Shown here: positions 2,103 through 44,070 of the stretch, in pieces
Numbering within the stretch: position 1 is the first letter of the stretch
Layout of the letters: each line of letters begins with the position of its first letter
Sequence record: NC_105512.1
DNA from: Escherichia phage JLBYU43
Length of the DNA: 64,000 nt
Strand: one strand, 5' to 3'
The notes under the pieces: generated by a model
What the model was told of the DNA's origin: nothing
Databases searched by the model: none
The model's input: the letters and a program-made list of their open reading frames with translations, nothing else
Made by a program: the position numbers and the translations under genes

Positions 2103-2285
2103 TTTATCTTGTTTTTCGAGATCTTCAAATTCTAGATTTATAGAATGTCCTATGGACCTAGCATAATAGCTATCTCCAGCATCAGTATCTCTTTCAATTT
2201 GGTACAACCTGTACGCAACGATCGTACCTCTTCTCCTTTTCAGGGAGATACTAATCCTTCTCAGTTAAAGTTGCATATTATCTGG

Positions 2286-2353: not shown

Positions 2354-2365
2354 ATTATTAATTGG

Positions 2366-2437: not shown

Positions 2438-2448
2438 ATTAATTTTGG

Positions 2449-2526
2449 TGGGGGATGGAGGACTCGAACCTCCGCGTGGTATACCCGGTCTACAGCCAGG
2501 CGCCGTCGCCACTGAGCCAATCCCCC
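2449..2526 (-). tRNA. tRNA-Tyr (GTA)
   Basis: Perfect acceptor GGGGGAT/ATCCCCC, anticodon arm CCTGG-CTGTAGA-CCGGG, 10-nt variable region, T-arm GGAGG-TTCGAGT-CCTCC, CCA at 2446-2448. Confidence 0.65.
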
Positions 2527-2650
2527 ATATTTGAATGAAAAGTAAGTCGGTTAAACTCAAAGTGGAATATTTCAGGAAATCCTGACTTTACCCCTAAAAG
2601 CAACTCGCTTAATTACTTCTCATTCAGATATGTTTCCAAAGTAGATAACT

Positions 2651-2679
2651 ATTATATCAAGTTTTATGGCACTGAGCAA
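2651..2679 (-). promoter_or_regulatory. sigma70-type promoter (TTGCTC-17-TATAAT)
   Basis: Reverse complement gives TTGCTC, 17 nt, TATAAT; the -35 element lies inside the left arm of the 13-bp inverted repeat. Confidence 0.45.
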
Positions 2680-2707
2680 GTCAGATTTTAAAGAACTTGC
2701 TCAGTGC
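2669..2707. repeat. perfect 13-bp inverted repeat (hairpin with 13-nt loop)
   Basis: GCACTGAGCAAGT at 2669-2681 and ACTTGCTCAGTGC at 2695-2707 are exact reverse complements; sits just downstream of the minus-strand CDS ending at 2716. Confidence 0.6.
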
Positions 2708-2715
2708 TATATCAG

Positions 2716-2991
2716 TTAATCAAATGAAGGAGTGACTTTCAAAGTGAATGGAAGTTCGAATACCTCTTCACCTTCATCAGTAACAGTGACTACTCGACCC
2801 TCTAGATTATTCATGCTGATTTCAACATCAGCCGTAGCATCAGGAGCCATACCAGCCTCAATACATTGAGCTTTGATCTCTGGAAGAAGTTCTACATTGT
2901 AGAAATAAAGCCACTCGATCTCACCTTCCCAACCACCCCAGGATTTACATACTGAGCTTTCAATACCAGTTGCTGTAACACGTTTTGACAT
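2716..2991 (-). CDS. hypothetical protein (91 aa)
   Basis: ORF-track ORF; start moved to the ATG at 2989-2991, preceded by GAGAGG RBS and the promoter at 3021-3050. Confidence 0.5.
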   Translation of the reverse strand: MSKRVTATGIESSVCKSWGGWEGEIEWLYFYNVELLPEIKAQCIEAGMAPDATADVEISMNNLEGRVVTVTDEGEEVFELPFTLKVTPSFD

Positions 2992-3020
2992 TCTGATTCC
3001 TCTCATCAATTTATATAACT

Positions 3021-3050
3021 ATTATATCAGAAATTTAAGGCAAAAGGCAA
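3021..3050 (-). promoter_or_regulatory. sigma70-type promoter (TTGCCT-18-TATAAT)
   Basis: Reverse complement: TTGCCT, TAAATTTCTGA..., TATAAT, then the conserved leader ATAAATTGATGAGAGG. Confidence 0.55.
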
Positions 3051-3080
3051 GTACATTTTTAAAAATTCTGTTTGGAGGAG

Positions 3081-3287
3081 TTAAAGACCGGATTCATCAG
3101 CCAGATCTAGACCAATAAGGGTGATTGCCATGATTGCAGCAGCCTGTTCTTTTTCACTCACATCTTTAGCAGACGCGATAATCTTTTCAAATTGTGATTT
3201 AAAATCTGCTACTTCAGCTTCTAAACCAGCTTCAGCAATAATGCCTTTCACCATAATACGCTGCGTCATAATTTCAGGATTTGCCAT
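3081..3287 (-). CDS. hypothetical protein (68 aa)
   Basis: ORF-track ORF; a 55-aa ORF (3284-3448) overlaps its start with ATG/TGA overlap. Confidence 0.45.
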   Translation of the reverse strand: MANPEIMTQRIMVKGIIAEAGLEAEVADFKSQFEKIIASAKDVSEKEQAAAIMAITLIGLDLADESGL

Positions 3288-3465
3288 TTGTTTTCTCCAG
3301 TTTCATTTTTAGTATTTTGCAAACAAAGTCAATATCTTCATCCGTGCCTAGATCTCTATCTTCAAGGGTTGCCTTGAAATTTTTTGTTAGTTCCATAAGA
3401 ATAACTTCCCTGGAACGACGTGTTGGCGGAGGTGGATGTCTATACATCTTAATTCCTTAATTTGG

Positions 3466-3537
3466 TGGGTCGGAGGAGAATCTAACTCCTACTCGTTAGC
3501 TTATGAGGCCACCGCTTTAACTTTAAGCTACCGACCC
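3466..3537 (-). tRNA. tRNA with CAT anticodon (Met, fMet or Ile2)
   Basis: Perfect acceptor GGGTCGG/CCGACCC, anticodon loop CTCATAA on an imperfect stem, T-arm AGGAG-TTAGATT-CTCCT, CCA at 3463-3465. Confidence 0.55.
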
Positions 3538-3546
3538 TATGTTTGG

Positions 3547-3632
3547 AGGAAGAAGTGGGAATCGAACCCACAAGGCTATATTTCAAACTGACAGATTAGC
3601 AATCTGCTGCAATACCGTTATGCTATTCTTCC
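3547..3632 (-). tRNA. tRNA-Ser (GCT), type II
   Basis: Perfect acceptor GGAAGAA/TTCTTCC, anticodon arm GCAGA-TTGCTAA-TCTGT, long variable arm, T-arm GTGGG-TTCGATT-CCCAC, CCA at 3544-3546. Confidence 0.6.
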
Positions 3633-3647
3633 GAATTTATAAGATAT

Positions 3648-3676
3648 ATTATATTAGAAATTTAGCTTCATAGCAA
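3648..3676 (-). promoter_or_regulatory. sigma70-type promoter (TTGCTA-17-TATAAT)
   Basis: Reverse complement: TTGCTA, 17 nt, TATAAT; overlaps the 3' end of CDS 3654-4172 and precedes the Ser and CAT tRNAs. Confidence 0.55.
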
Positions 3677-4172
3677 GAAAATTTTTCAAGTTTTCGGTAG
3701 ACATCTCATCCACATCTACAGGAGAAACAAATCCATTTAATTGTTTAGCAAATTTTTCACCTGCAGGATCATTATCCCCAACAGCTACCAATTTAAAAGG
3801 TAGTAATTTCAATTGCTTTAACAACGCTTTTCCAGGGGAAGAACCCAACATTGCTAGGGCTGGATAACCAGCATTATGTAATGCAACTGCCTTAAATACA
3901 GATTCAGCAATCAATACTACTTTTTCATCTCCATTGAGAGTTTCTAGTCCCCATACACACTGGGTAGTAGAATAAGTAAAATATTTAGCTTCAAAGGGAC
4001 ACTTACCATGACCTTTTGGAGCAGAAGGATTATAAGTTTGATAGCCCCTCAACATCCCAGAGAAATCATATAACGGGACTGTTAGCCATCCTTCCGGACT
4101 TAACCAGCAATGATATTTTTCTGTATCAAATCCCCTAGATAGAAGGTGCTGTGTTAGCTCATCAACACTCAT
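3654..4172 (-). CDS. hypothetical protein, possible Toprim-like fold (172 aa)
   Basis: ORF-track ORF with AGGAG RBS upstream; LVAVGDNDPAGEKFAKQL resembles a Toprim acidic motif. Weak assignment. Confidence 0.5.
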   Translation of the reverse strand: MSVDELTQHLLSRGFDTEKYHCWLSPEGWLTVPLYDFSGMLRGYQTYNPSAPKGHGKCPFEAKYFTYSTTQCVWGLETLNGDEKVVLIAESVFKAVALHNAGYPALAMLGSSPGKALLKQLKLLPFKLVAVGDNDPAGEKFAKQLNGFVSPVDVDEMSTENLKNFLAMKLNF

Positions 4173-4213
4173 ATTTGATCTCCTAGTTAGTTTTATAAAT
4201 ACATTATATAGAA

Positions 4214-4244
4214 AAGCCCGCGCTCTCGGAGGAAACGCGGGCTT
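4214..4244 (-). terminator. intrinsic terminator hairpin
   Basis: AAGCCCGCG/CGCGGGCTT 9-bp GC-rich stem with 13-nt loop, followed on the minus strand by TTCTAT; immediately 3' of CDS 4268-5284. Confidence 0.55.
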
Positions 4245-4267
4245 GTTTCGAAGATTACGTGTAACTA

Positions 4268-5284
4268 TTACTTATTACGCATATCCATAATCATCTGGCC
4301 ATCATAACCAGTACCTACAACAGTCTGAGGAACGCCACCCTGATATTTTTCAGCGCGTTTCATATCAACTTCCAGCTGCTTCCAACGAATCATTTCAGGA
4401 GTAATGGTACGTTGCAGAGCGGCGTTAGCTTCAGCTTCTTTCTTAGCTGCGTACAGTTTAGCATCTGCGTCACGTTCGTTAGCTACTGCCATATTTTCAC
4501 GAGCAGAACGATCAGCTTCAGCTTGCTTAACTTTCTGCTGTGCTTCTTGTTCAACACGAGCTAGTTCAGCTTTTGCAGCGTTAACTTGTTCTTCACGAAC
4601 TTTTGTGTTTTGTACCTGTTCCATGATTACCGGTGGCAGAGTAATATCCTGAAGGAATACTTGCTTAACGGTGTAACCATAAGGACGCGCGTACTCTTCT
4701 ACTTCTTGCTGAATAGCGGTTTGCAGTTGAGCCTGAATCTTAGCGTCGAACAGATCTTGTGCTTTTGGTACAGACTTACCAAACTCACGAATCGTAGACA
4801 GCATCTTCTCTTCAACGTACTTGTTCAGAGCTTGATCCTGAGTACCTGCGTTAATACGGTTAATCGGTGCCTTAGAACCATCAAACTGCAACATAACAGT
4901 CAAGTCAACAGTGGATTTAAACTTATCCTGGCTAGGAACCTGAAGTTTATCTAATTTTACAGCAATATCTTTTGTACTAAAAGTATCGAAAGATGCAAAC
5001 GGGTTTACAAGATGGAAACCAGGCAATACTGGATTAGGATCTACTTTACCCAGAAATGTTTGGGTTTTAACCGTACCATCAGAAACAATAGTATATGAAT
5101 TAAAAGCTAGAATCAAGCCTGCTAAACCAACTACAGCACCAATACCCCAACGTTTAATAGTATATGAATTAAAAGCTAGAATCAAGCCTGCTAAACCAAC
5201 TACAGCACCAATACCCCAACGTTTAATAGTACGAATTACTTTCTGCTCAGAAGTCAGTTCTTTCATATTTTTAGTATTAAACAT
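4268..5284 (-). CDS. SPFH/band-7 (HflC/prohibitin-like) membrane protein with duplicated N-terminal TM segment
   Basis: N-terminal hydrophobic helix, SPFH-like core and a long coiled-coil C-terminus rich in E/A/Q/K; AAGGAAA RBS before the ATG at 5282-5284. Confidence 0.65.
   Translation of the reverse strand: MFNTKNMKELTSEQKVIRTIKRWGIGAVVGLAGLILAFNSYTIKRWGIGAVVGLAGLILAFNSYTIVSDGTVKTQTFLGKVDPNPVLPGFHLVNPFASFDTFSTKDIAVKLDKLQVPSQDKFKSTVDLTVMLQFDGSKAPINRINAGTQDQALNKYVEEKMLSTIREFGKSVPKAQDLFDAKIQAQLQTAIQQEVEEYARPYGYTVKQVFLQDITLPPVIMEQVQNTKVREEQVNAAKAELARVEQEAQQKVKQAEADRSARENMAVANERDADAKLYAAKKEAEANAALQRTITPEMIRWKQLEVDMKRAEKYQGGVPQTVVGTGYDGQMIMDMRNK
5092..5229. repeat. perfect direct tandem duplication, 2 x 69 bp, in-frame within CDS 4268-5284
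   Basis: 5092-5160 and 5161-5229 are identical (TATATGAATTAAAAGCTAGAATCAAGCCTGCTAAACCAACTACAGCACCAATACCCCAACGTTTAATAG); encodes KRWGIGAVVGLAGLILAFNSYTI twice. Confidence 0.9.
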
Positions 5285-5321
5285 ATGTTTCCTTTGTTTT
5301 AGTTACAGTTAATAAAATTGG

Positions 5322-5393
5322 CCGAGGTGACAGGATTCGAACCTGCATAAAGGAATTTAGAAGACTCCTGCCTATCCCTTAGACTACACCCCG
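5322..5393 (-). tRNA. tRNA-Arg (TCT)
   Basis: Acceptor CGGGGTG/CACCTCG, anticodon arm GGAGT-CTTCTAA-ATTCC, T-arm GCAGG-TTCGAAT-CCTGT, CCA at 5319-5321. Confidence 0.65.
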
Positions 5394-8936: not shown

Positions 8937-9575
8937 TTACTCTACTTCGATAAAAGTAGAGGCGTTGGACTCAGACAGAACAAAGTCAACGTTGGTTGCA
9001 AAGTCCTGGTATTCTTCGTCGTGTTGCTTGATCAGCTTTTCCAGCTCCAGCGGATCGATCAGGAACGGAGTGTTCTTGAGTTCCAGCAGGTTAAGCTGCA
9101 TCTTAACTTCATCCTCGGAAGTCTTCTTGTCGCGGGTAGCCATGGTATCCTGCAAACGCTCATACTTAGCATCAAACTGAGCTTTCTGAGTGTTAAACTT
9201 AACAGTAGCAGCATGGAACTGCTTACGCATGTTAGCCAGCAACTGAGCTTTGAGTTCCATAGAACGCTTAGCTTCGATTGCTTCCGCAACAGTCATAGAG
9301 CGCGAACCGATCTCTACAACAGTTTCAGCATTGCTCTTGATCAGCGCAGCTTTCAGACGATCACGCTGGGACATCATATCCAGCAGAGACTGGAAATCAG
9401 TCTTAATACGGGTAGACAGATCGTCTACTTCGATTGCAGCGCCAACTACAACCTGGTTCTTGTCCTTACCTTCACCAACAGCGATCAAAAGCTGTTGTTC
9501 AGTAGCTTTACGGATTTTAGCTTCCAGAGACTTGATAGTTGCCAGAGCACGAGTTTTAGAGATACGAGTAGTCAT
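8937..9575 (-). CDS. hypothetical protein, host-like codon usage (212 aa)
   Basis: ORF-track ORF; codon choice (CTG, CGT, GGT) resembles highly expressed E. coli genes. Confidence 0.6.
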   Translation of the reverse strand: MTTRISKTRALATIKSLEAKIRKATEQQLLIAVGEGKDKNQVVVGAAIEVDDLSTRIKTDFQSLLDMMSQRDRLKAALIKSNAETVVEIGSRSMTVAEAIEAKRSMELKAQLLANMRKQFHAATVKFNTQKAQFDAKYERLQDTMATRDKKTSEDEVKMQLNLLELKNTPFLIDPLELEKLIKQHDEEYQDFATNVDFVLSESNASTFIEVE

Positions 9576-10874: not shown

Positions 10875-11390
10875 TTACTTCGCTTTACGCTTGCGAGCTG
10901 GTTTAGCAGATTTACGAGCAGAATCACCCGTGAACTTAATGCCTACACCGTAACACAGAGCACGAACGTTATCTTTACTATACTCTACGCCAAAGATATT
11001 TGGCTTAACAGAACCAAACTGCCCGCGAGTATCACGCAATACATCTGCCGTTGGTTTACGCTTCTGGTTAACTGCCTTCTCATAGTCTTTCATAGACATA
11101 CCATTACGAGAGAACAATTCAGCCCCAGCGTTGAAGCTCAGGGAAACTGGGACAGATTTGTGGCCGTAATTTTCTACATACATAACCATTTTGTAGGATT
11201 TACGGGTGGCATTTTTAGCTTTAGGCTTCTGACGAATCGGAGCCGGATTATTCAGTGCTTGCGCAGCCTGAGCATCGGTGGGATGCTTACGCAGGTGGCG
11301 TTCCAGACGAGCCTTGCGATTAGCCTCAGTCTTCGGGAAAGTTTTAACTGCCGGAGCTGCTTGAGTTTTTGCGTTTTTCTGCTTAGCCAT
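10875..11390 (-). CDS. hypothetical lysine/arginine-rich protein (171 aa)
   Basis: ORF-track ORF with strongly basic termini; nucleic-acid binding is a guess. Confidence 0.55.
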   Translation of the reverse strand: MAKQKNAKTQAAPAVKTFPKTEANRKARLERHLRKHPTDAQAAQALNNPAPIRQKPKAKNATRKSYKMVMYVENYGHKSVPVSLSFNAGAELFSRNGMSMKDYEKAVNQKRKPTADVLRDTRGQFGSVKPNIFGVEYSKDNVRALCYGVGIKFTGDSARKSAKPARKRKAK

Positions 11391-31065: not shown

Positions 31066-31476
31066 ATGACTACTCCAACTCAGTGGACTGATGAACTGTT
31101 CGAAAAAATGTCTTCCGAATACGTTGCTCGTATGGAGCAATTCCCAGAGGATGAACGTCCGGGTGTTAGCATGGAAATTGTTAGCGAAATTGCCCAGGAA
31201 AATGGTGTAACTCCGAACGGTTTTCGTATGAAGCTGACTAAAGCAGGTTTGTATATCAAGAAAGCTGCTGGCTCTGCTTCTAAATCTAGTGCATCTACTG
31301 GAGAAAAAGCTTCTGGTGGTTCTCGCACTTCTAAAGCTCAAGCCCATGCCGACCTTCGTTCAGCATTCTCTGATGCTGGCCTAGCACCAGATTTTCTGGA
31401 TGATGCAATTATTGACAAACTGACCGGTAAAGCGGCTGCTCATCTGGCAGAAGCAATCCGAGCTATCACTAAGTAA
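31066..31476 (+). CDS. hypothetical protein, host-like codon usage (136 aa)
   Basis: ORF-track ORF with E. coli-optimal codons and an Ala/Ser/Lys-rich central region. Confidence 0.6.
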   Translation: MTTPTQWTDELFEKMSSEYVARMEQFPEDERPGVSMEIVSEIAQENGVTPNGFRMKLTKAGLYIKKAAGSASKSSASTGEKASGGSRTSKAQAHADLRSAFSDAGLAPDFLDDAIIDKLTGKAAAHLAEAIRAITK

Positions 31477-32255: not shown

Positions 32256-33227
32256 ATGACTAATGTAAAAGACTTTATTAAACGTTGCCAAGAAGCGTAT
32301 TACCAGGGAATGTCTTTAATCTCTGACGAAGAATATGATCGTCTGATTAAAAGATTTCCGTTAGAAGAAGAGATCGGGCCTAAGGGCGATATTCCACATC
32401 TGTATCGTATGTATTCTTTACAGAAAGTTTACTTTGATCGTGGTGATAAAGCTCCGTTTACTACCCTTGATGATGTAGAAACTGATAAGTTAGATGGTTG
32501 TGCAATTTCTCTACTGTATATCGACGGAACGTTTGTTCAAGCATTAACTCGTGGTAATGGTATTCTAGGAAATGATGTCACAAGCAACGTTAGATTGCTG
32601 AACATCCCGAAAAAGATTTCCCAAAAAGTACCAACTCAAATCACTGGTGAAGTTCTTATCACTAAAGAAGTAGAAAACAAACGTAACTACGCTTCCGGTG
32701 CTATTAACTTAAAAGAAGAAGATGACTTCATCGAACGTATTGCAGAAGGTGGCTTGATTTTTGTAGCGTACGGTATTCAGTGTTCAGAGGATTCTGTAGG
32801 TATTACAGGTTCTTACTTAGATGATATGTCTTGGTTGGCTAACGAAGATTTTATCACTGTAATGAACATTAAAAACTACTTTAATTGGTATCCAACGGAT
32901 GGTAAAGTAGTTCGTATTAATGACAACAACAAATTCTTCCGTGAAGGTTGGACAAATAAACATCCTCGTGGTGCTTATGCAATCAAACAAGATGAAGAAG
33001 GCGAAATTACAACTCTTCTCAAAGTTGAATGGCAGGTAGGGGCTTCTGGTAAAGTAACTCCAGTTGGTTATTTCGAACCGGTAATTATTGATGATGCTAC
33101 AATTGTTAAGGCGACTCTTAATAACGTTGATTATATTAACTCTCTTGATCTAGAGATCGGTTGCCAGATTCGAGTAATTCGTGCTGGTGGTGTAATCCCG
33201 TGTATAGTAGAGCGAGTATACGATTAA
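32256..33227 (+). CDS. ligA: NAD-dependent DNA ligase, N-terminal half (adenylation and OB domains)
   Basis: SDEEYDRL (domain Ia), KLDGCAISLLY (KxDG adenylation lysine), TRGNGILGNDVTSNVR and IRAGGVIP match LigA motifs. Confidence 0.8.
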   Translation: MTNVKDFIKRCQEAYYQGMSLISDEEYDRLIKRFPLEEEIGPKGDIPHLYRMYSLQKVYFDRGDKAPFTTLDDVETDKLDGCAISLLYIDGTFVQALTRGNGILGNDVTSNVRLLNIPKKISQKVPTQITGEVLITKEVENKRNYASGAINLKEEDDFIERIAEGGLIFVAYGIQCSEDSVGITGSYLDDMSWLANEDFITVMNIKNYFNWYPTDGKVVRINDNNKFFREGWTNKHPRGAYAIKQDEEGEITTLLKVEWQVGASGKVTPVGYFEPVIIDDATIVKATLNNVDYINSLDLEIGCQIRVIRAGGVIPCIVERVYD

Positions 33228-33277
33228 TACATAACCCTTTGCTACCCATCTACCATATCGGAATTATAAAGTGGTTA

Positions 33278-33306
33278 TTGACATTTTCGCCGCTTAGGTA
33301 TATACT
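33278..33306 (+). promoter_or_regulatory. sigma70-type promoter (TTGACA-17-TATACT)
   Basis: TTGACA, 17 nt, TATACT inside the 200-bp gap between the two ligase ORFs. Confidence 0.5.
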
Positions 33307-33370
33307 ATTATCATTCAGTTGAGGGATAGAAAGTTATGGCGAGGGTAAGCAAAGTTAGTTAAAATTGTAG

Positions 33371-33399
33371 TTGCTAAATGCTTAAATACTTGCTATAAT
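33371..33399 (+). promoter_or_regulatory. sigma70-type promoter (TTGCTA-17-TATAAT)
   Basis: TTGCTA, AATGCTTAAATACTTGC, TATAAT, leader ATAAATTGATAAGGAAG. Confidence 0.65.
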
Positions 33400-33429
33400 A
33401 TTTATATAAATTGATAAGGAAGAAATTTG

Positions 33430-34209
33430 ATGAAAATCGAAATTCCAACACAATGTCCCTCTTGTGGTTCTAAGCTAGATCTTGTCAACGGACAATTATT
33501 CTGTCGGAATAAGTCCAACTGTCCAGCGCAATCAAGTAAGTTAATTGAGAACTTCTGTACAAAAATGAAGTTAAAGGGCTTTGGTCCAAAAACTATTGAG
33601 AAGCTGGAGCTGACGAAGATTTCAGAACTATTTTACCTAACCGAAGAAGATTTGGTTAGAGCCGTGGGTAGCAAGGTTGCCGCTAAGTTAATTAGCGAAT
33701 TAAATACTAAAGTTCGCGGAGACATTGACTTTGGTTCAGTTCTCGGTTCTTTAGGAATCCCTCTAATCGGAGAGGTTGCAGCAAAGAAATTATCCCAAAA
33801 TTGCACTAGCTTCCACGATGTGAAGGCTGACGGCAAGGCTGGAGAAAATTATAAAGCCTGGCTAAATTCCCCACAAGGCAAGGATGTTATCGAATTACCG
33901 TGGAAATTTTCAACTGGTATTAGGGGCACTAAAGCTAATATCATCATTACAGATGAATTAGTTGCCCAGCCAAATGGAATCGCGGTATGTATTACCGGAT
34001 CTTTGCAAGATTTTGCAAATCGAACGGATGCAACAAACTATTTAGAAAGTCTAGGGTATACGGTTAAGAAATCAGTTACTAAAGACGTCAAATACCTAAT
34101 CTGTGAGGATGAATCAAAACGTTCTTCCTCATCTTATAAGAAAGCCGAAACGAATGGGATAGAAATCCTGTCGATTAAAGAACTATTGGAGAAAAATAAT
34201 AATGTCTAA
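33430..34209 (+). CDS. ligA: NAD-dependent DNA ligase, C-terminal half (Zn finger, HhH, BRCT)
   Basis: Zinc-finger CPSCGS...C..C, helix-hairpin-helix region and BRCT-like IAVCITGSL; ATG at 33430 preferred over the TTG at 33427. Confidence 0.75.
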   Translation: MKIEIPTQCPSCGSKLDLVNGQLFCRNKSNCPAQSSKLIENFCTKMKLKGFGPKTIEKLELTKISELFYLTEEDLVRAVGSKVAAKLISELNTKVRGDIDFGSVLGSLGIPLIGEVAAKKLSQNCTSFHDVKADGKAGENYKAWLNSPQGKDVIELPWKFSTGIRGTKANIIITDELVAQPNGIAVCITGSLQDFANRTDATNYLESLGYTVKKSVTKDVKYLICEDESKRSSSSYKKAETNGIEILSIKELLEKNNNV

Positions 34210-34969
34210 ACTGAACTGGAACGTAGAAGGTGTAACCGAGTCTCTGAAAGCAAAAGCCACTGCTCTGGGTGTTGCTGTAATCTCTCAAGAACAAGTAGCT
34301 GCTATCGCTGCTGAACTGGCCGCTGAAACTGGCAAAGATGTTACCGCTCGCTCTGTTGGCTCTAAACTGCGTAAAGAAGGTTTTGAAGTACAGAAAGCTA
34401 ATGAAGTACAGAAATCTCCGTGGACTCCTGAGCAGGAAGCTGAACTGGTTGATTTCCTGAACGCTCATGCTGGTCAGTATACCTATGCTGAAATCGCTGC
34501 TGCTGTAGCTGGTGGTCAGTTCGGTGCTAAGCAGGTACAGGGTAAGATTCTGAGCCTGGAAATGACCGCTTCTGTTAAGCCAACCGAAAAAGCTGCCGCT
34601 GTTCGTTCCTTCACTCCGGATGAAGAAACTGATTTTGTTAATCAGGTTGTTGCTGGTGCTACTATTGAAGCTATCGCTGCTCACTTCGGTCGTAATATCA
34701 AGCAGATCCGTGGTAAAGCTCTGAGCCTGCTTCGTGAAGGTCGTATCGCTGCTATGCCGGTACAGGAAACCTCAAGTGCTAAAACTCGTGAAGATCTGTT
34801 AGAAGGTCTGGATTTGGTTAACATGACTGTTGCTGAGATCGCCGAGAAAACTGGTAAGTCTGAGCGCGGTGTTAAATCTATGCTGTCTCGTCGTGGTCTG
34901 GTTGCTAAGGACTATGATGGTGCCGCTAAGCGTGCTAAACTGGATGCAAAAGCTGCGGCTGCTGAATAA
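34202..34969 (+). CDS. repeat-containing protein with four HTH-like repeats, host-like codon usage (possible T5 D5-like DNA-binding protein)
   Basis: Four tandem units sharing the pattern [hydrophobic]AEIAxxxG....R.VKS.LSRRGL; Ala-rich; E. coli-optimal codons. D5 identity is a guess from size and position. Confidence 0.6.
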   Translation: MSKLNWNVEGVTESLKAKATALGVAVISQEQVAAIAAELAAETGKDVTARSVGSKLRKEGFEVQKANEVQKSPWTPEQEAELVDFLNAHAGQYTYAEIAAAVAGGQFGAKQVQGKILSLEMTASVKPTEKAAAVRSFTPDEETDFVNQVVAGATIEAIAAHFGRNIKQIRGKALSLLREGRIAAMPVQETSSAKTREDLLEGLDLVNMTVAEIAEKTGKSERGVKSMLSRRGLVAKDYDGAAKRAKLDAKAAAAE

Positions 34970-34986
34970 TCTGGTAAATTAAACCT

Positions 34987-35018
34987 AAGGGGAGGGGGCT
35001 ATGCTCCTTCCCCTTTTT
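34987..35018 (+). terminator. intrinsic terminator
   Basis: AAGGGGAGG/CCTTCCCCTT stem followed by TTTTT, directly 3' of CDS 34202-34969. Confidence 0.65.
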
Positions 35019-35051
35019 GCATTTAGAAGGCACGAAAGCGTGCAAAGGAGA

Positions 35052-36524
35052 ATGACCTTGTTTAACGTGCAAGCTGTAGTGTTGAAGATGCTTCTAGCTT
35101 CTGAACAGAAGCAAATAGCATTGGAAACATTCTCAAAACTGCATAAAGATCATTTTAATGACGCTTTCTCCTCAATTTACCAAGCCGTCCAGAATTATTA
35201 TAAAAAATATAACACAATGCCGTCCATTGACGCACTGATGCTTGAGGCTAATAGGAACGCCCGTCTTTCTCAAGCTCTAGTCGTCTTAGCTAACACTCAA
35301 ATTCCAGAAGTGAGCATGGAACAGGCACTTGAAGTCCTAGAAGCAGAATATACACAGGATTTATTCCTGAAGCTTCTAGAAACAGACGTGCTTCAAGATT
35401 TAACAATGCTGGATCAGGGAGAAATTCTCAACCGAGTTGCCTCCCTTCACTTAAAATTAGAAGAGAAAGTAACGAATACTGGAAAAGTATTCAACGCAGA
35501 TAACATGCGTATTTTCCAGAGAGAAGAAGATACCAAACTGAACTTAATCGCTCTTGGTATTTGTAATGAGTTCGACGCTCAAATTGGTTTAGCTCGCACA
35601 GAAACGTTACTGCTTGGTGGTTGGCGTGGTACTGGTAAATCCATTATCTGTTCAAACATACAGGTTCAGCAATATTTGAATGGAGATATTGCTCCATACT
35701 TCTCAATTGAGATGAAAGAACATGAAGTATTTAGACGTAATCTAGCCATGTTAGCTGGTGTATCAGCATTAGCAATGCGTAATAACACTCTTGAAGGTGC
35801 TGCTCTGTTGAGATTAGCCAGAACTAGGGCTAGGATGTTTAATGGTGGTGAAGAGCTTTTCGATAACTTCGTTAAGCAATACACTATGGCTAAAATGAGT
35901 GACTTCTATGATATGGAAAGTAAACTCCTTGAAGGCTATGAGCTTCACACTCCTATGATCATCGTTTACGATCCTGAACTGTCTATTACGACTGTTGACG
36001 TAGAATTAAATAAACTAGTTGCTAAATATGGTGATAAGGTTACTGTAGCTCTTCTAGACTATATTAACCAAACAAGACTTCCAGATTCAAAGACCATTGA
36101 CATGTATGACTGGAAAGAACAGATGGTCGTTAGTTCATCTTTCAAATCTATCTGCCAGAAACATAACGTGGCTGGTGTAGCTCCTTACCAGATCGATCAA
36201 GATGGTAGAACACGTATGTCAAAGGGGATTCTTGATTCCGCAGACATGGCTGCTAATCTTAATGCTGCAAAAGCTGATAATGGTCAAGGTGCTATTATGT
36301 TTGACTTCGTTAAGACTCGTTCTTCTGATAGCGTGAAGTTTATGCCTAAAATGAACTGGGAAACTCTGCGAATGGATAACACTACCAACCTAGCAATGGA
36401 AGATATATCTCAAATGGAAGCTGAGTTCGTTATCCCTATTGAGAAGGATAAGCCGGCTCAACCTAAACGTGCTAAGAAAGACAAAACTGAAAATTCAACA
36501 GGTGAACAGGCCAGCGATATATGA
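35052..36524 (+). CDS. DnaB-like replicative helicase
   Basis: RecA-like core with Walker A GGWRGTGKS; start set at the ATG after AAAGGAGA RBS (MTLFNVQ...). The ORF-track start lies inside the terminator. Confidence 0.7.
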   Translation: MTLFNVQAVVLKMLLASEQKQIALETFSKLHKDHFNDAFSSIYQAVQNYYKKYNTMPSIDALMLEANRNARLSQALVVLANTQIPEVSMEQALEVLEAEYTQDLFLKLLETDVLQDLTMLDQGEILNRVASLHLKLEEKVTNTGKVFNADNMRIFQREEDTKLNLIALGICNEFDAQIGLARTETLLLGGWRGTGKSIICSNIQVQQYLNGDIAPYFSIEMKEHEVFRRNLAMLAGVSALAMRNNTLEGAALLRLARTRARMFNGGEELFDNFVKQYTMAKMSDFYDMESKLLEGYELHTPMIIVYDPELSITTVDVELNKLVAKYGDKVTVALLDYINQTRLPDSKTIDMYDWKEQMVVSSSFKSICQKHNVAGVAPYQIDQDGRTRMSKGILDSADMAANLNAAKADNGQGAIMFDFVKTRSSDSVKFMPKMNWETLRMDNTTNLAMEDISQMEAEFVIPIEKDKPAQPKRAKKDKTENSTGEQASDI

Positions 36525-37054
36525 TAACACAGGAAAGGCTAAAAGAGTTATTTGATTACTCCCCAGAAACTGGGGAGTTTACTAGAAAAGTATCTAGAGG
36601 CAATCAGAAAGCTGGGAGTATAGTAAATAGAAAAGACTCTAATGGCTATATAATTATTGGCATAGATGGCAAGGATTACAAAGCTCATCGTATGGCTTTT
36701 CTATTTATGGAGAATACACTGCCTGAAAAAGTAGACCATGTAAACAGAATACCATTCGATAACAGATGGTGTAATCTAAGAGATGCCACAGCCCAGGAAA
36801 ATAGTAGAAATAAAACAGCATGTAGTAAATCTGGATACTTAGGAGTTGCTTGGGATAAGAAAAATCAAAAATGGGAAGTTAGAGTCAGGGATTATTTAGG
36901 AAATAAAAAATATTTCGGAAGATTTAACTATCTGGATTTACAATCAGCTGTTGAGATAGCTAATAAGGCCAGACTACAGTTACACGGAGAACGTGCTGTT
37001 ATAGAGATTTTTGATATATATAATTATCCTGCACTAGAGGAGCTAAACTCATGA
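36521..37054 (+). CDS. HNH homing endonuclease
   Basis: HNH motifs (HRMAFLFM..VDHVNRIPFDNRWCNLR); paralog of CDS 12302-12850; wedged between helicase and primase with overlapping start and stop. Confidence 0.75.
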   Translation: MITQERLKELFDYSPETGEFTRKVSRGNQKAGSIVNRKDSNGYIIIGIDGKDYKAHRMAFLFMENTLPEKVDHVNRIPFDNRWCNLRDATAQENSRNKTACSKSGYLGVAWDKKNQKWEVRVRDYLGNKKYFGRFNYLDLQSAVEIANKARLQLHGERAVIEIFDIYNYPALEELNS

Positions 37055-37941
37055 GTAGAATAACAGAACTACTTGATCTGAAAGGCATCGAATATAAAGA
37101 TACAGGTGGTGATATTCTTATATGCTGTCTCAATCCAGATCACGATGATAAACACCCAAGTTTGCGTATTGATCCTGAAACAGGCATTATGCACTGCTTG
37201 AGTTGTGGCTTCGGTAAAGGTATACCGAGCATTTACCATTATTTTAATGAGACTCAGTACCGACAGTCTCCAAGACTATCGCAGGTACGTAAAAAGATTT
37301 CAGAGATTAGGAATGGATCTACGAATCTTGCAATTCCTGAATCTGCTTACCTTTTCGAAGGTGATTTCCGAGGTATAAGTTCTAAGACCTTGAAGAAATA
37401 TTTTGCTTTCCAACACCAAGCAGACTGGGAAGGCAGAATTGTATTTCCAATCACAGATGCTGTTGGACGTAATATCCTATTTTTGGGTCGTTCTATAAAC
37501 AGTTCTGCCCCTCCTAAATACTTAGTAAAACCAAAACAAGTTTCACCACCGATTTTCCCTGTACGATATAATACTCCAGTTCTTATCTTAGTTGAGGGTA
37601 TCTTTGATATGCTGAACCTAGAGGATAATGGTATAGACTATGCTTCTTGCTGCTTTGGTACACATCAGTTCACTTCAGATAACATTGCAGATAAGTTCAG
37701 TCCTTATATTATTGCTGGTGTAAAAGTTGTTGTTATCTTACTAGATAATGATGCTTCTGGTAATAAAGCTGCACAAGCGTTGGCCAAGTTAATTCGTACA
37801 AAAACGCGTTTAACACCTGTAATTGCTAACTTTCTCCTACCTGAAGGCAAAGATCCAGGTGATTTAAACAAAGATGAAATTGATATGTTAGCAAAACGTA
37901 TTGAAATTTTAGTTGCTGAATCGCTTAAAGATTTGGTATAA
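37051..37941 (+). CDS. DNA primase (zinc-binding plus Toprim)
   Basis: Zinc-binding CCLNPDHDDKHPSLRID...HCLSCG and Toprim-like LVEGIFDMLNL ... LLDNDASGNKA. Confidence 0.75.
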   Translation: MSRITELLDLKGIEYKDTGGDILICCLNPDHDDKHPSLRIDPETGIMHCLSCGFGKGIPSIYHYFNETQYRQSPRLSQVRKKISEIRNGSTNLAIPESAYLFEGDFRGISSKTLKKYFAFQHQADWEGRIVFPITDAVGRNILFLGRSINSSAPPKYLVKPKQVSPPIFPVRYNTPVLILVEGIFDMLNLEDNGIDYASCCFGTHQFTSDNIADKFSPYIIAGVKVVVILLDNDASGNKAAQALAKLIRTKTRLTPVIANFLLPEGKDPGDLNKDEIDMLAKRIEILVAESLKDLV

Positions 37942-38390: not shown

Positions 38391-40958
38391 TTGAAAATCG
38401 CAGTAGTTGATAAAGCTCTAAATAACACTCGTTATGATAAACATTTCCAGCTATACGGCGAGGAAGTTGATGTATTCCATATGTGTAACGAGAAGTTATC
38501 TGGTCGTTTGCTTAAAAAGCACATTACTATTGGAACACCAGAAAACCCATTTGATCCGAATGATTATGATTTTGTTATACTAGTAGGTGCTGAACCTTTC
38601 CTGTATTTCGCAGGTAAGAAAGGCATTGGTGACTATACTGGTAAACGTGTAGAGTATAATGGATATGCTAACTGGATTGCGAGTATCAGCCCAGCCCAGT
38701 TACACTTTAAGCCCGAAATGAAACCAGTTTTTGATGCAACAGTAGATAATATCCACGATATTATCAATGGTCGTGAGAAGATTGCAAAAGCTGGTGATTA
38801 CCGCCCTATTACTGACCCTGATGAGGCAGAAGAATATATCAAGATGGTGTATAATATGGTTATCGGACCTGTAGCATTCGACTCCGAAACCTCAGCACTA
38901 TACTGTCGAGATGGTTATCTGCTTGGTGTTTCTATGTCTCACCAAGAGTATCAGGGTGTGTATATCGATTCTGATTGTCTCACAGAGGTTGCAGTATATT
39001 ATCTCCAGAAAATTCTGGATAGTGAAAACCACACTATTGTTTTTCACAACCTGAAGTTTGATATGCACTTTTATAAGTACCATCTGGGACTTACTTTTGA
39101 TAAAGCACATAAAGAACGCAGGCTTCATGATACTATGTTGCAGCATTATGTTCTAGATGAGCGTCGTGGTACTCATGGCTTGAAATCTCTAGCAATGAAG
39201 TATACCGATATGGGTGACTATGACTTTGAACTAGATAAGTTCAAGGAGGATTACTACAAAGCACATAAAATCAAGAAAGAAGATTTCACTTATGATTTAA
39301 TTCCGTTTGATATTATGTGGCCTTACGCTGCAAAAGATACCGATGCCACCATACGTTTGCACAACTTCTTCTTACCAAAAATTGAGAAGAATGAAAAACT
39401 TTGCAGTCTGTATTATGATGTTCTAATGCCTGGTTGTGTATTCCTCCAGCGTGTTGAGGATCGTGGTGTACCAATTTCTATTGATCGCCTGAAAGAAGCA
39501 CAGTACCAGTTAACTCATAATCTGAATAAAGCTCGTGAAAAGCTGTATACTTACCCAGAAGTCGTTCAGCTAGAGAAAGATCAGAACGAAGCGTTTAACC
39601 CAAACTCTGTTAAACAACTCCGTGTTCTTCTGTTTGATTATGTTGGGTTAACTCCAACAGGTAAATTGACAGATACTGGAGCGGACTCTACAGATGCAGA
39701 AGCTCTGAACGAACTGTCTACGCAGCATCCAATTGCTAAAACTCTGCTAGAGATTCGTAAGCTGACTAAGCTGATCTCTACTTACGTTGAGAAGATTCTT
39801 CTGAGCATTGATGCTGATGGTTGCATTCGTACTGGCTTCCACGAACACATGACTACTTCTGGTCGTCTGAGTTCTTCTGGTAAACTGAACCTGCAACAGT
39901 TACCTCGTGATGAATCTATTATCAAGGGTTGTGTAGTAGCTCCTCCCGGGTATCGTGTAATCGCATGGGACTTAACAACTGCGGAAGTTTATTATGCTGC
40001 TGTTCTATCTGGTGATAGAAATATGCAACAAGTATTTATCAACATGAGAAATGAACCAGATAAATACCCTGACTTCCACTCTAACATCGCACACATGGTA
40101 TTTAAGCTCCAATGCGAACCTCGTGATGTTAAAAAGTTATTCCCAGCCCTGCGTCAAGCAGCTAAAGCAATCACTTTTGGTATTTTGTATGGTTCTGGCC
40201 CGGCTAAAGTAGCTCATTCTGTTAATGAGGCTCTTTTGGAACAAGCTGCTAAGACAGGCGAACCGTTTGTAGAGTGTACTGTTGCAGATGCTAAAGAGTA
40301 CATTGAAACTTACTTCGGCCAGTTCCCGCAGCTTAAGCGTTGGATTGATAAGTGCCACGATCAGATCAAGAATCATGGATTTATCTATAGTCACTTTGGT
40401 CGTAAACGTCGTCTGCATAATATCCACTCTGAAGACCGTGGTGTTCAGGGTGAAGAAATCCGTTCTGGATTTAACGCAATCATTCAGTCTGCTTCTTCTG
40501 ATAGTCTCCTTTTAGGTGCTGTAGATGCAGATAATGAGATCATTTCTCTTGGCCTAGAACAAGAGATGAAGATTGTTATGCTGGTTCACGACTCAGTAGT
40601 TGCTATTGTTCGTGAGGATTTGATCGACCAATACAATGAAATCCTGATTCGTAATATCCAAAAAGACCGTGGTATCAGTATTCCTGGCTGTCCGATTGGT
40701 ATTGATTCTGATTCTGAAGCTGGAGGTTCTCGTGACTACTCTTGTGGTAAGATGAAGAAGCAGCACCCATCAATCGCTTGTATTGATGATGATGAATATA
40801 CTCGTTATGTCAAGGGTGTATTACTTGATGCAGAATTCGAGTATAAGAAATTAGCTGCAATGGATAAAGAGCATCCAGATCATAGCAAATACAAGGATGA
40901 TAAGTTTATTGCTGTATGTAAAGATTTGGATAATGTGAGAAGGATTCTCGGTGCTTGA
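38391..40958 (+). CDS. family A DNA polymerase with 3'-5' exonuclease (T5-type, TTG start)
   Basis: 855 aa; exonuclease motif VAFDSETSAL; Pol A motifs (RQAAKAITFGILYG, HDS). N-terminus MKIAVVDKALNN matches the T5 polymerase as recalled; AGAGGAGA RBS before the TTG. Confidence 0.9.
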   Translation: MKIAVVDKALNNTRYDKHFQLYGEEVDVFHMCNEKLSGRLLKKHITIGTPENPFDPNDYDFVILVGAEPFLYFAGKKGIGDYTGKRVEYNGYANWIASISPAQLHFKPEMKPVFDATVDNIHDIINGREKIAKAGDYRPITDPDEAEEYIKMVYNMVIGPVAFDSETSALYCRDGYLLGVSMSHQEYQGVYIDSDCLTEVAVYYLQKILDSENHTIVFHNLKFDMHFYKYHLGLTFDKAHKERRLHDTMLQHYVLDERRGTHGLKSLAMKYTDMGDYDFELDKFKEDYYKAHKIKKEDFTYDLIPFDIMWPYAAKDTDATIRLHNFFLPKIEKNEKLCSLYYDVLMPGCVFLQRVEDRGVPISIDRLKEAQYQLTHNLNKAREKLYTYPEVVQLEKDQNEAFNPNSVKQLRVLLFDYVGLTPTGKLTDTGADSTDAEALNELSTQHPIAKTLLEIRKLTKLISTYVEKILLSIDADGCIRTGFHEHMTTSGRLSSSGKLNLQQLPRDESIIKGCVVAPPGYRVIAWDLTTAEVYYAAVLSGDRNMQQVFINMRNEPDKYPDFHSNIAHMVFKLQCEPRDVKKLFPALRQAAKAITFGILYGSGPAKVAHSVNEALLEQAAKTGEPFVECTVADAKEYIETYFGQFPQLKRWIDKCHDQIKNHGFIYSHFGRKRRLHNIHSEDRGVQGEEIRSGFNAIIQSASSDSLLLGAVDADNEIISLGLEQEMKIVMLVHDSVVAIVREDLIDQYNEILIRNIQKDRGISIPGCPIGIDSDSEAGGSRDYSCGKMKKQHPSIACIDDDEYTRYVKGVLLDAEFEYKKLAAMDKEHPDHSKYKDDKFIAVCKDLDNVRRILGA

Positions 40959-43019: not shown

Positions 43020-43304
43020 ATGCTTACAGAGCCTGATGCTCACCAATTATTGGTCGGTCCCTCATTCATTTTGAATGAATCAACAATAGTTGATAATCCA
43101 AATAAATTGTCTAATAGACAACTGGCAGAATATCTAGGAATTTTAAGTCTACGAAATTATGCCGAATACAAGTTTACAAACGATCCTAGTCTGGACATGC
43201 AATATGTTCCAGTATGGATACCACGTTTAGTAATCGACACTAACCCACTAATCGCAATTAACAAATCGAAATTAATCTTTAAAGAGGAAATAAAATATGG
43301 CTAA
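43020..43304 (+). CDS. hypothetical protein (94 aa)
   Basis: ORF-track ORF; first sizeable ORF after the tandem promoters. Confidence 0.5.
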   Translation: MLTEPDAHQLLVGPSFILNESTIVDNPNKLSNRQLAEYLGILSLRNYAEYKFTNDPSLDMQYVPVWIPRLVIDTNPLIAINKSKLIFKEEIKYG

Positions 43305-44070
43305 GTCTTGGGGCGAAACTACTGGTGGTTCTAACGATAAAATCGAATTCCTGAAGTTCAACAACGGTATCACTCGTGTTCGTATCGTTTCTGGTGTTCT
43401 TCCACGTTATGTTTATTGGCTGACTAATAAAGATGGTAACGCAGCTCCTTTCGAATGTCTCCGTTTTAACCGTGACAAAGAGAGTTTTGTTCGTGGTAAA
43501 GCTGATCCGGTTCATGAGATGGGCTTCTTCGAGAAAGAGCTGGATAAAGATGGTAATCGTGTTCCGCTGAAACCGAAGAAAAACTATATCGCTTTTGTTA
43601 TTGACCGTTCTGATAACAAACTGAAAGTAATGGAAGTTAAGGCTACTATTCTGAAAGGCATTCAGTCTATCATGAAGCAGTTGAGTCTGGCAACTCCGTT
43701 TGATATTGATATTTCTATCGAGAAAAAAGGTAAAGGTTTCGATACTGAGTATGATGTACAGCAGATTGCTGCTATGCAGTTCCAGATTAAGCTGCAAGAT
43801 CCTAACAGTGCGGAATCTAAGCAATATGCTGCGGATGTCGATCTGATCGGTGAAGCTATGTGTGATGAAGATGGCGACATCATTAAGTTCGAAAAAGTTC
43901 CTTCTCTGGAACAAACCTATCCGGTTCCTACCTATGAAGAGCAGAAAGAAGCAATTCTAGCCTTCATGGAGGGTCGTGAGAATAAAGATGATGATGCCAA
44001 ATCTGGTAATAGCAATGCAGGTTCCCAGAAAGGTATTGACTCAGAAGCTGCAAGCGATCTGGACGACTAA
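43297..44070 (+). CDS. putative single-stranded DNA-binding protein (acidic C-terminal tail), host-like codon usage
   Basis: E. coli-optimal codons; acidic C-terminus ending DSEAASDLDD as in phage SSBs; AAAGAGGAAA RBS. Function inferred from composition and position. Confidence 0.55.
   Translation: MAKSWGETTGGSNDKIEFLKFNNGITRVRIVSGVLPRYVYWLTNKDGNAAPFECLRFNRDKESFVRGKADPVHEMGFFEKELDKDGNRVPLKPKKNYIAFVIDRSDNKLKVMEVKATILKGIQSIMKQLSLATPFDIDISIEKKGKGFDTEYDVQQIAAMQFQIKLQDPNSAESKQYAADVDLIGEAMCDEDGDIIKFEKVPSLEQTYPVPTYEEQKEAILAFMEGRENKDDDAKSGNSNAGSQKGIDSEAASDLDD

What the first reader, a model, noticed from the sequence alone, without database searches (positions are those of the whole stretch)
34202..34969. 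Four-repeat HTH-like protein encoded with host-optimal codons
The 255-aa protein is built of four tandem units of about 55-60 aa with a shared AEIA...G...R.VKS.LSRRGL-type pattern. Its codon usage is strongly E. coli-optimal, unlike most neighbours, suggesting very high expression. It sits just upstream of the helicase-primase-polymerase genes and ends at a strong terminator, fitting an abundant DNA-binding early protein.
Basis: partly seen in the sequence, partly recalled or inferred. Interest (0 to 1): 0.4.

Follow-up and report, generated by a model that had tools for sequence, protein, structure and literature searches.

The report
Phage T5 D5 DNA-binding protein gene

Summary
Window 34202-34969 (+) encodes a 255-aa protein that matches bacteriophage T5 D5 (T5.118) at 254 of 255 residues. 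D5 is annotated as a DNA-binding protein needed for replication and late transcription. The window is a Tequintavirus replication module: ligA, ligB, D5, D6 helicase, HNH, primase, polymerase.

All three observations hold.
- **Repeats.** An AlphaFold2 model (pLDDT 93.6) shows four small helix-turn-helix modules plus a C-terminal helix. By sequence only modules 2 and 3 are clearly duplicates (hhalign 96%, E 3e-9). Modules 1 and 4 are divergent, and module 4 lacks the first helix. Relatives with five modules, and more distant arrays with about nine, show the module count varies.
- **Codons.** CAI is 0.766 against E. coli ribosomal-protein genes. That is the highest of 73 ORFs (median about 0.35) and z = 13.5 against synonymous resampling. 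Strong bias recurs in Klebsiella, Proteus and Vibrio phage orthologues.
- **Expression signals.** The gene follows promoters identical to T5 P-K28b and P-K28a and ends at a 13-bp-stem terminator.

Best reading: a flexible chain of HTH modules, made in large amounts, that coats duplex DNA. The closest fold is the GcrA DNA-binding domain, but D5 is not a member of that family. The gene is already known. The module architecture and the conserved codon bias are modest additions.

The parts
33278..33306 (+). Sigma-70 promoter (TTGACA-17-TATACT), the same sequence as T5 promoter P-K28b. It is the first of two tandem promoters driving ligB-D5.
   Evidence: Promoter scan, 11 of 12 matches. The spacer is 100% identical to the T5 region annotated P-K28b/P-K28a.
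33371..33399 (+). Sigma-70 promoter (TTGCTA-17-TATAAT, with an extended -10 TG), the same sequence as T5 promoter P-K28a.
   Evidence: The core elements are conserved in Proteus phage PM135.
33430..34209 (+). ligB (NAD-dependent DNA ligase subunit B). It is the upstream gene of the same transcription unit and its stop codon overlaps the D5 start (ATGTCTAA). CAI is only 0.306.
34188..34191 (+). Shine-Dalgarno GGAG, 10 nt upstream of the D5 ATG in an A/T-rich spacer.
   Evidence: Read directly from the sequence.
34202..34969 (+). D5 coding sequence: 255 aa, 27.0 kDa, pI 6.8, 17.6% Ala.
34217..34390 (+). HTH module 1 (aa 6-63; helices 11-22, 29-43, 49-58). The third helix is basic: R50, K55 and R57 are invariant.
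34421..34576 (+). HTH module 2 (aa 74-125; helices 76-88, 95-101, 109-118). Q113, G114 and K115 are invariant.
34610..34759 (+). HTH module 3 (aa 137-186; helices 139-150, 155-162, 166-178). G171 and K172 are invariant. It is a clear duplicate of module 2.
34784..34909 (+). HTH module 4 (aa 195-236; helices 210-217 and 221-231 only). It matches Pfam Sigma70_r4_2 above the gathering score.
   Evidence: 28.7 bits against a cutoff of 25.7. 44 of 46 family members hit this model. Helices.
34919..34963 (+). Conserved C-terminal helix (aa 240-254, within the family-wide motif DYDGAAKRAKLD). Its role is unknown; it is a candidate protein-protein contact.
   Evidence: The proposed role is inference only.
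34987..35025 (+). Intrinsic terminator: a 13-bp stem with a 3-nt loop, followed by a T-rich tail.
   Evidence: RNA fold of the surrounding 101 nt gives -34.7 kcal/mol, z -3.2. A near-identical hairpin follows D5 in Proteus phage PM135, and a terminator is annotated after D5 in Klebsiella phage Sugarland.

Best explanation
The gene is the orthologue of bacteriophage T5 early gene D5.

The product is a 27-kDa chain of four small helix-turn-helix modules. Three are three-helix modules and one is a shortened sigma-region-4-like HTH. They are joined by conserved linkers of 15-30 residues and followed by a conserved C-terminal helix. Each module carries a basic third ('recognition') helix.

Inferred mechanism: one monomer places its modules in successive major grooves of duplex DNA. 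It binds with little sequence preference and in near-stoichiometric amounts, coating phage DNA.

Coating would explain the D5 phenotypes recorded in the T5 annotation and the classical literature: a requirement for continued replication, shut-off of early gene expression, and a requirement for late transcription.

The large amount of protein needed comes from the layout of the locus. Two strong tandem early promoters (P-K28b and P-K28a) sit upstream of ligB-D5. D5 has its own Shine-Dalgarno site and host-optimal codons, which raise its output above that of the co-transcribed ligB. A strong terminator insulates the downstream helicase, primase and polymerase genes.

Shown here: gene identity, four-module architecture, codon adaptation, promoters and terminator, and conservation of all these. 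Inferred: binding geometry, lack of sequence specificity, and how coating produces the transcription switch.
For: Identity.
- 254 of 255 residues match T5.118.
- PHROG 323 'D5-like' matches at E 1.5e-71.
- 506 phage records match at DNA level and 901 at protein level, all T5-like.
- The order ligB, D5, helicase, primase, polymerase is conserved in Klebsiella, Proteus and Vibrio phages and in a distant metagenomic contig.

DNA binding and function.
- The T5 RefSeq note describes a DNA-binding protein required for replication and late transcription.
- McCorquodale et al. [quoted passage not shown]
- The preprint 10.64898/2026.07.11.737809 reports purified D5 at 26 kDa by mass photometry. It also reports that D5 is toxic to E. 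coli and triggers retron-Kva2, and that AlphaFold3 modelling predicts its HTH binds the retron's DNA stem-loop.

Architecture.
- The AF2 model has pLDDT 93.6 but pTM only 0.54. That suggests confident modules whose relative orientation is uncertain.
- The four third helices carry net charges of +3, +1, +4 and +4 in an otherwise neutral protein.
- Invariant residues cluster on those helices.
- The number of modules varies among relatives. P0121, P0186 and P0193 have five, and P0186 sits in the same genomic slot.

Expression.
- CAI 0.766, rank 1 of 73 ORFs.
- Effective number of codons (Nc) is 31.2 here, 35.0 in Klebsiella, 36.8 in Proteus and 30.7 in Vibrio phage orthologues. That is the lowest or second lowest of the replication genes examined in each phage.
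- Promoters and terminator.
- The D5 homologue is abundant in a phage phiR2-01 preparation by mass spectrometry.

From memory, not checked here: Rice et al. 1979 (J Biol Chem) and Fujimura and Roop 1983 (J Virol) described D5 as an abundant protein that binds duplex DNA cooperatively and inhibits RNA polymerase and T5 polymerase on duplex templates. Gentz and Bujard 1985 ranked the P-K28 promoters among the strongest E. coli promoters.
Against: - No DNA-binding experiment or footprint was available to me. Binding-site size, cooperativity and lack of specificity rest on recalled literature and inference.
- Modules 1 and 4 are only marginally related to modules 2 and 3 by sequence. Four equivalent DNA contacts are therefore not established.
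- Module 2's third helix has a net charge of only +1.
- Module 4 resembles sigma-70 region 4.2, and the best fold match is the domain of an RNA-polymerase-associated regulator, GcrA. Both leave room for a specific transcription-factor role.
- The preprint reports a viable T5 escaper carrying W74* in D5. That is hard to reconcile with an indispensable full-length coating protein.
- In a distant phage contig of about 30% GC, the D5-like gene shows no special codon bias: Nc 39.0 against 36-44 for its neighbours.
Confidence: 0.65

Rival explanations
1. D5 is mainly a sequence- or state-specific late-gene transcription factor. It would use its HTH modules to recognise late promoter DNA and contact host RNA polymerase, as GcrA does through sigma-70. 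It would not be a general DNA-coating protein.
For: - Several phage records annotate it as a 'late gene transcription factor' or 'transcription factor D5'.
- It is required for late transcription.
- The module-3 profile aligns to GcrA residues 2-48 at 81% probability.
- Module 4 passes the Pfam Sigma70_r4_2 threshold.
- Two distant relatives fuse a GerE/sigma-region-4-type HTH to D5-like repeats.
Against: - A regulator needed at a few promoters would not need the highest codon adaptation in 64 kb plus two strong tandem promoters.
- D5 lacks any counterpart of the GcrA C-terminal sigma-interacting region. Pfam GcrA is not hit by this protein and only weakly by 14 of 46 relatives.
- The abundance seen by mass spectrometry and the toxicity in uninfected cells fit bulk DNA binding better.
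- No RNA polymerase contact was tested.
Confidence: 0.25
2. D5 is mainly a replication accessory protein. By covering duplex DNA it would keep the strand-displacing T5 polymerase from starting at the natural nicks of T5 DNA and channel it to proper forks. The transcription effects would be secondary.
For: - The gene sits at the head of the helicase, primase and polymerase block in every relative examined.
- D5 is required for replication.
- T5 polymerase is annotated as strand-displacing from nicks, and the genome carries site-specific nicks.
- From memory only: Fujimura and Roop 1983 reported effects of D5 on T5 polymerase in vitro.
Against: - This overlaps the main explanation rather than excluding it.
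- Nothing in the sequence points to a polymerase contact.
- The late-transcription and early shut-off phenotypes need more than a polymerase effect.
Confidence: 0.2
3. The 'repeats' are a by-product of an alanine-rich, low-complexity sequence, and the codon bias reflects recent acquisition from a host genome rather than selection for expression.
For: - The protein is 17.6% alanine.
- Most module pairs are only weakly similar.
- Gene GC is 47.8% against about 39% in its neighbours.
Against: - Modules 2 and 3 align at z = 8 and E 3e-9.
- Four separate HTH folds are modelled at pLDDT above 90.
- Relatives differ by whole modules.
- GC3 is only 0.34, and the preferred codons are the T- and G-ending optimal codons of highly expressed E. 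coli genes (GCT, GGT, CGT, TCT, CTG), not average host usage.
- The gene is a vertically conserved core gene with the same bias in phages of four host genera.
Confidence: 0.02

Closest known systems
Bacteriophage T5 D5 protein (T5.118, YP_006946.1; PHROG 323)
   Same: 254 of 255 residues are identical, the length is the same, and so are the neighbours, promoters and terminator. This is the same gene in a sister Tequintavirus.
   Different: One substitution, D25A. The four-module description and the codon-adaptation figures were not found in the papers I could search. The 2026 retron preprint speaks only of 'a helix-turn-helix motif'.
GcrA DNA-binding domain (Caulobacter crescentus, PDB 5YIU; Pfam PF07750)
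Myb/SANT repeat arrays (for example c-Myb R1-R2-R3) and other tandem homeodomain-like HTH arrays
   Different: D5 modules lack the three regularly spaced tryptophans of Myb repeats. Pfam Myb scores 17.6 bits against a cutoff of 24.4. Myb arrays bind specific sites, whereas D5 is thought to bind without sequence preference.
Sigma-70 region 4.2 HTH (Pfam PF08281)
   Same: Module 4 (aa 204-230) passes the gathering score at 28.7 bits against 25.7, and 44 of 46 relatives match.
   Different: Only the two-helix HTH core (profile positions 23-49 of 54) is matched. There are no sigma regions 2 or 3, so this is a fold-level resemblance.
Abundant phage-encoded duplex-DNA-binding 'histone-like' proteins (phi29 p6, SPO1 TF1)
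   Same: These are functional analogues as I recall them: early, very abundant proteins that coat phage DNA and affect both replication and the early-to-late transcription switch.
   Different: The folds are unrelated and there is no sequence similarity. This comparison rests on my own knowledge and was not tested here.

Membership tests
T5 D5 protein family (PHROG 323) | Full-length sequence similarity to T5 D5 | tested here: met
   99.6% identity over 255 aa. PHROG 323 matches at E 1.5e-71 over residues 1-253.
T5 D5 protein family (PHROG 323) | Position in the early replication module, between ligB and the D6 helicase | tested here: met
   The position is conserved in Sugarlandvirus, Novosibvirus and Thalassavirus.
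T5 D5 protein family (PHROG 323) | Binds double-stranded DNA; required for replication and late transcription | not testable with these tools
   Taken from the T5 annotation, the title of McCorquodale 1979 and the 2026 preprint.
Helix-turn-helix clan (sigma-70 region 4.2 type, PF08281) | Pfam score above the gathering threshold | tested here: met
   28.7 bits against a cutoff of 25.7 at aa 204-230. 44 of 46 relatives match, best E 1.7e-10.
Internal tandem-repeat protein (four homologous modules) | Statistically significant similarity between all modules | tested here: inconclusive
   Modules 2 and 3 are significant (z 8.0; hhalign 96%, E 3e-9). The other pairs score 4-66% probability. Module 1 lies just above and module 4 at the shuffled background with a module 2+3 HMM.
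Internal tandem-repeat protein (four homologous modules) | The same fold repeated in tandem | tested here: met
   The AF2 model shows three three-helix HTH modules and one two-helix HTH at a period of about 60 aa. Each module hits HTH families separately. Module number varies in relatives.
GcrA family (PF07750) | Pfam GcrA model matched above threshold | tested here: not met
   No hit for this protein at E up to 10. 14 of 46 relatives match, best E 0.0019, below the gathering score.
GcrA family (PF07750) | N-terminal DNA-binding-domain fold | tested here: met
GcrA family (PF07750) | C-terminal sigma-70-interacting domain | tested here: not met
   After module 4, D5 has only a 16-residue helix, and nothing matches the C-terminal part of the 155-position Pfam model.
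Myb/SANT repeats (PF00249) | Pfam score above threshold | tested here: not met
   17.6 bits against a cutoff of 24.4.
Myb/SANT repeats (PF00249) | Three regularly spaced tryptophans per repeat (feature recalled from my own knowledge) | tested here: not met
   The sequence has one aromatic residue (W6, W74, F137) at the start of modules 1-3 and no spaced tryptophans.

The most novel reading that the evidence does not exclude
D5 may be the founding example of a family of flexible multi-HTH DNA-coating proteins. The family would have arisen by internal duplication of a GcrA/Myb-like module. Module number would vary: four in T5, five in some Demerecviridae-like phages, and more in distant relatives. 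Under this reading D5 acts as phage 'chromatin'. Its stoichiometric loading on phage DNA would itself be the early-to-late switch, and it would also be the molecular pattern that type IX retrons have evolved to sense.
Probability: 0.3. Interest if true: 0.45.

Novelty: already known. Interest (0 to 1): 0.18.

Why it matters
The gene and its role as an abundant DNA-binding early protein have been known since the 1970s, so nothing here changes the picture of T5 biology.

The analysis adds three small things.
- It gives an explicit four-module HTH architecture, with a clear duplication of modules 2 and 3 and a variable module count among relatives.
- It shows quantitatively that D5 is the most host-adapted gene in 64 kb, and that this bias is conserved in phages of four host genera.
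- It describes a conserved expression cassette of tandem promoters, ligB, D5 and a terminator. In it, codon choice appears to set the output of D5 well above that of the co-transcribed ligB.

These points could help groups now studying D5 as a retron trigger to design truncations along module boundaries.

Tried and rejected
- **Solved structures by sequence.** Nothing informative turned up: the best profile hit was a designed homeodomain at E 9e-4, and single modules gave only noise.
- **Whole-chain Foldseek against PDB.** No match reached E <= 0.001, so the overall architecture has no solved counterpart.
- **afdb50 fold library.** It was not available.
- **Rfam scan of 33200-35200.** No RNA family was found.
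- **DRT4 trigger.** I checked whether D5 was the T5 'DNA binding protein' that triggers DRT4. It is not; that protein is ORF55.
- **GcrA membership.** Considered and rejected.
- **Horizontal acquisition as the cause of the codon bias.** Rejected on GC3, codon identities and conservation.
- **Antisense ORF 34175-34684 (169 aa).** Rejected as a by-product of the GCT/GGT-rich sense frame.
- **Codon bias in a distant T5-like contig of about 30% GC.** The test was uninformative, because Nc there is dominated by base composition.
- **Classical papers.** McCorquodale 1979 (PMC353123) is not held in the library, so the old biochemistry is cited from a reference title and from memory.
Full report
**What is there.** Window 34202-34969 (+) is an ATG-to-TAA ORF of 255 aa. 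Its DNA matches 506 phage records, nearly all at 95-99% identity. They are T5-like phages of Salmonella, Escherichia, Klebsiella and Citrobacter, and the gene is annotated 'D5 protein', 'DNA-binding protein' or 'hypothetical protein'.

The protein matches bacteriophage T5 D5 (T5.118) at 254 of 255 residues; the one difference is D25A. It matches PHROG 323 'transcriptional regulator, D5-like' at E 1.5e-71 over its whole length. The T5 RefSeq note reads 'DNA-binding protein; required for DNA replication and late transcription; also is involved in shutoff of expression of ...'.

The neighbourhood is the T5 early replication module. It runs ligA 32256-33227, ligB 33430-34209, D5, D6 helicase, the HNH gene hegJ 36521-37054, primase 37051-37941 and polymerase 38391-40958.

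**Checking the repeats.** I aligned 46 homologues of 50-80% identity and used them for an AlphaFold2 model. Mean pLDDT is 93.6 but pTM is only 0.54. That suggests well-defined modules whose mutual arrangement is uncertain.

The secondary structure falls into four blocks:
- helices 11-22/29-43/49-58
- helices 76-88/95-101/109-118
- helices 139-150/155-162/166-178
- helices 210-217/221-231, followed by a helix at 240-254

Three blocks are three-helix HTH modules. The fourth has only the two HTH helices; residues 182-209 are modelled as coil.

By sequence the picture is uneven. Modules 2 and 3 are unmistakable duplicates. Smith-Waterman gives z = 8.0 against shuffles, and profile-profile comparison gives 96% probability with E 3e-9. 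All other pairs align in the same register but weakly, at 4-66% probability.

An HMM built from modules 2+3 picks up module 1 in 45 of 46 homologues, at a median of 5.7 bits; the 99th percentile of shuffled sequences is 5.05. It picks up module 4 only at background level, with a median of 1.9 bits. Each module scanned alone gives weak hits to different HTH Pfam families. Module 4 passes the Sigma70_r4_2 gathering score at 28.7 bits against 25.7.

At DNA level the period leaves traces. There is a 30-nt direct repeat 171 nt apart, which encodes the third helices of modules 2 and 3, and an 'ATCGCTGCTG' motif recurs at intervals of 180-189 nt.

Comparative data support a modular reading. A search of 1.84 billion cluster representatives found 616 clusters at E <= 1e-3 and 78 at E <= 1e-30. 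Among them are D5-like proteins with five modules (P0121, P0186, P0193). More distant proteins carry about nine modules or Myb-type arrays. The five-module protein P0186 occupies the same slot in a distant T5-like metagenomic contig: dUTPase, D5-like, small ORF, DnaB, primase, PolA.

Verdict on the repeats: four HTH modules in tandem is correct as architecture. 'Four sequence repeats' is proven only for the central pair.

**Checking the codon claim.** I built relative adaptiveness values from 30 E. coli K-12 ribosomal-protein, elongation-factor and rpoA genes. On that scale D5 scores CAI 0.766 and Fop 0.71, within the range of the reference genes themselves (0.54-0.84). It ranks first among 73 ORFs in the window. 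The flanking genes score 0.306 (ligB) and 0.361 (D6). The median for the 51 ORFs over 100 aa is 0.35.

I resampled the D5 protein 5000 times with the window's overall synonymous usage. That gave CAI 0.401 +/- 0.027 with a maximum of 0.504, which puts D5 at z = 13.5. The preferred codons are CTG 16 of 19, CGT 10 of 12, GGT 17 of 19, GCT 37 of 45, TCT 10 of 15, ATC 8 of 10 and CAG 10 of 12. These are the choices of highly expressed E. coli genes, not of an average host gene, and GC3 is only 0.34.

The effective number of codons (Nc) is 31.2 here. For the orthologues it is 35.0 in Klebsiella phage Sugarland, 36.8 in Proteus phage PM135 and 30.7 in Vibrio phage River4. In each phage that is the lowest or second lowest of the replication-module genes examined. 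The bias is therefore an old, selected property of the gene, not a sign of recent transfer. In one distant contig of about 30% GC the measure is uninformative.

**Expression signals.** The 200-nt spacer between ligA and ligB is 100% identical to the T5 spacer annotated with promoters P-K28b and P-K28a. The consensus scan finds them at 33278-33306 (TTGACA-17-TATACT) and 33371-33399 (TTGCTA-17-TATAAT, with TG). From memory, these are among the strongest known E. coli promoters (Gentz and Bujard 1985).

The D5 ATG overlaps the ligB stop (ATGTCTAA) and follows a GGAG at 34188-34191. Eighteen bases after the D5 stop lies a 13-bp-stem hairpin with a T-rich tail, at 34987-35025. Proteus phage PM135 shares only about 55% protein identity. 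It still has the same two promoters, ligB, D5 and an almost identical terminator. Sugarland has an annotated terminator at the same place.

ligB and D5 thus share a transcript but differ 2.5-fold in CAI. This suggests that translation sets the much higher D5 output; that step is inference. Independent evidence for abundance comes from a mass-spectrometry study of the T5-like Yersinia phage phiR2-01. There the D5 homologue was among the seven proteins with the highest spectral counts in the virion preparation, even though it is not a known T5 virion component (PMC8624392).

A July 2026 preprint (10.64898/2026.07.11.737809) adds experimental data. Purified D5 appears at 26 kDa by mass photometry. 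It is toxic when expressed alone in E. coli and triggers the type IX retron Kva2. AlphaFold3 modelling in that paper predicts that its HTH binds the retron's DNA stem-loop.

Combining these points with the classical description gives the best-supported reading. The classical description is a duplex-DNA-binding protein that affects replication and late expression (title; biochemical details from memory). One chain lays four HTH modules along successive major grooves. It coats phage DNA in bulk. That shuts off early transcription, restrains the strand-displacing polymerase on nicked duplex DNA and permits the late programme.

The identity, architecture and expression design are shown here. The binding geometry, the lack of sequence preference and the causal link to the switch are inferred.

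The main rival is a specific, RNA-polymerase-directed late activator. It is kept alive by the GcrA-like fold and the sigma-region-4-like module 4. It does not explain the extreme expression design.

Myb repeats and sigma region 4.2 are similar at fold level only. The whole-chain architecture has no significant match in the PDB.

**Verdict.** The feature is the already-known T5 D5 gene. The explicit module map, the variable module number among relatives and the conserved codon and expression design are modest additions. I did not find them in the papers I could search.

Noticed in passing
window 35001-35054: The D6 helicase ORF opens at ATG 35001, as annotated in T5 RefSeq, but that codon lies in the loop of the D5 terminator hairpin. 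Orthologues in Klebsiella, Proteus and Vibrio phages begin at M-[Y/I]-NVQAVVLK, which corresponds to Met18 here (ATG 35052). That ATG is preceded by AAGGAG at 35045-35050. The annotated start is probably 17 codons too early.
   Followed up: yes
window 36521-37054: An HNH endonuclease gene (hegJ homologue, CAI 0.218) sits between the D6 helicase and the primase, overlapping both by 4 nt. It is absent from the Vibrio, Proteus and Klebsiella relatives, where the helicase abuts the primase. It looks like a mobile insertion.
   Followed up: partly
window 8937-9575 (-), 10875-11390 (-), 31066-31476 (+), 43297-44070 (+): These are the other strongly host-adapted genes. The T5.085 homologue scores CAI 0.715 and is labelled 'tail fiber protein' although it lies in an early region. 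The T5.089 homologue behind promoter P-H207 scores 0.598. D3 (DNA-binding protein) scores 0.615 and the D11 single-strand-binding protein 0.662. High CAI seems to track the strong T5 early promoters.
   Followed up: partly
window 32256-34209; L008 4436-6226: The NAD-dependent DNA ligase is split into ligA and ligB by a 200-nt spacer that carries the two promoters. A distant metagenomic T5-like contig has an unsplit 596-aa ligase.
   Followed up: no
window 34175-34684 (-): A 169-aa antisense ORF lies inside D5. It is serine-rich and looks like a by-product of the GCT/GGT-rich sense codons, not a gene.
   Followed up: no
window 642-5393 (-): There are eleven tRNA genes: Met x2, Pro, Gly, Lys, Asn, Cys, Glu, Tyr, Ser and Arg-TCT. 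This is the end of the T5-type tRNA cluster.
   Followed up: no
proteins P0245 and P0252: Two distant proteins of 506-569 aa combine an N-terminal GerE/sigma-region-4-type HTH with four to five D5-like modules. P0256 (599 aa) is an array of about nine HTH modules. Their sources and genomic contexts were not examined.
   Followed up: partly
literature: bioRxiv 10.64898/2026.07.11.737809: A viable T5 escaper of retron-Kva2 is reported to carry D5 G53D, W74*, V149I and G232D. As I recall, D5 was defined by conditional-lethal mutants, so a stop at the start of module 2 is unexpected. G53 lies in the third helix of module 1, and G232 directly follows the third helix of module 4.
   Followed up: no
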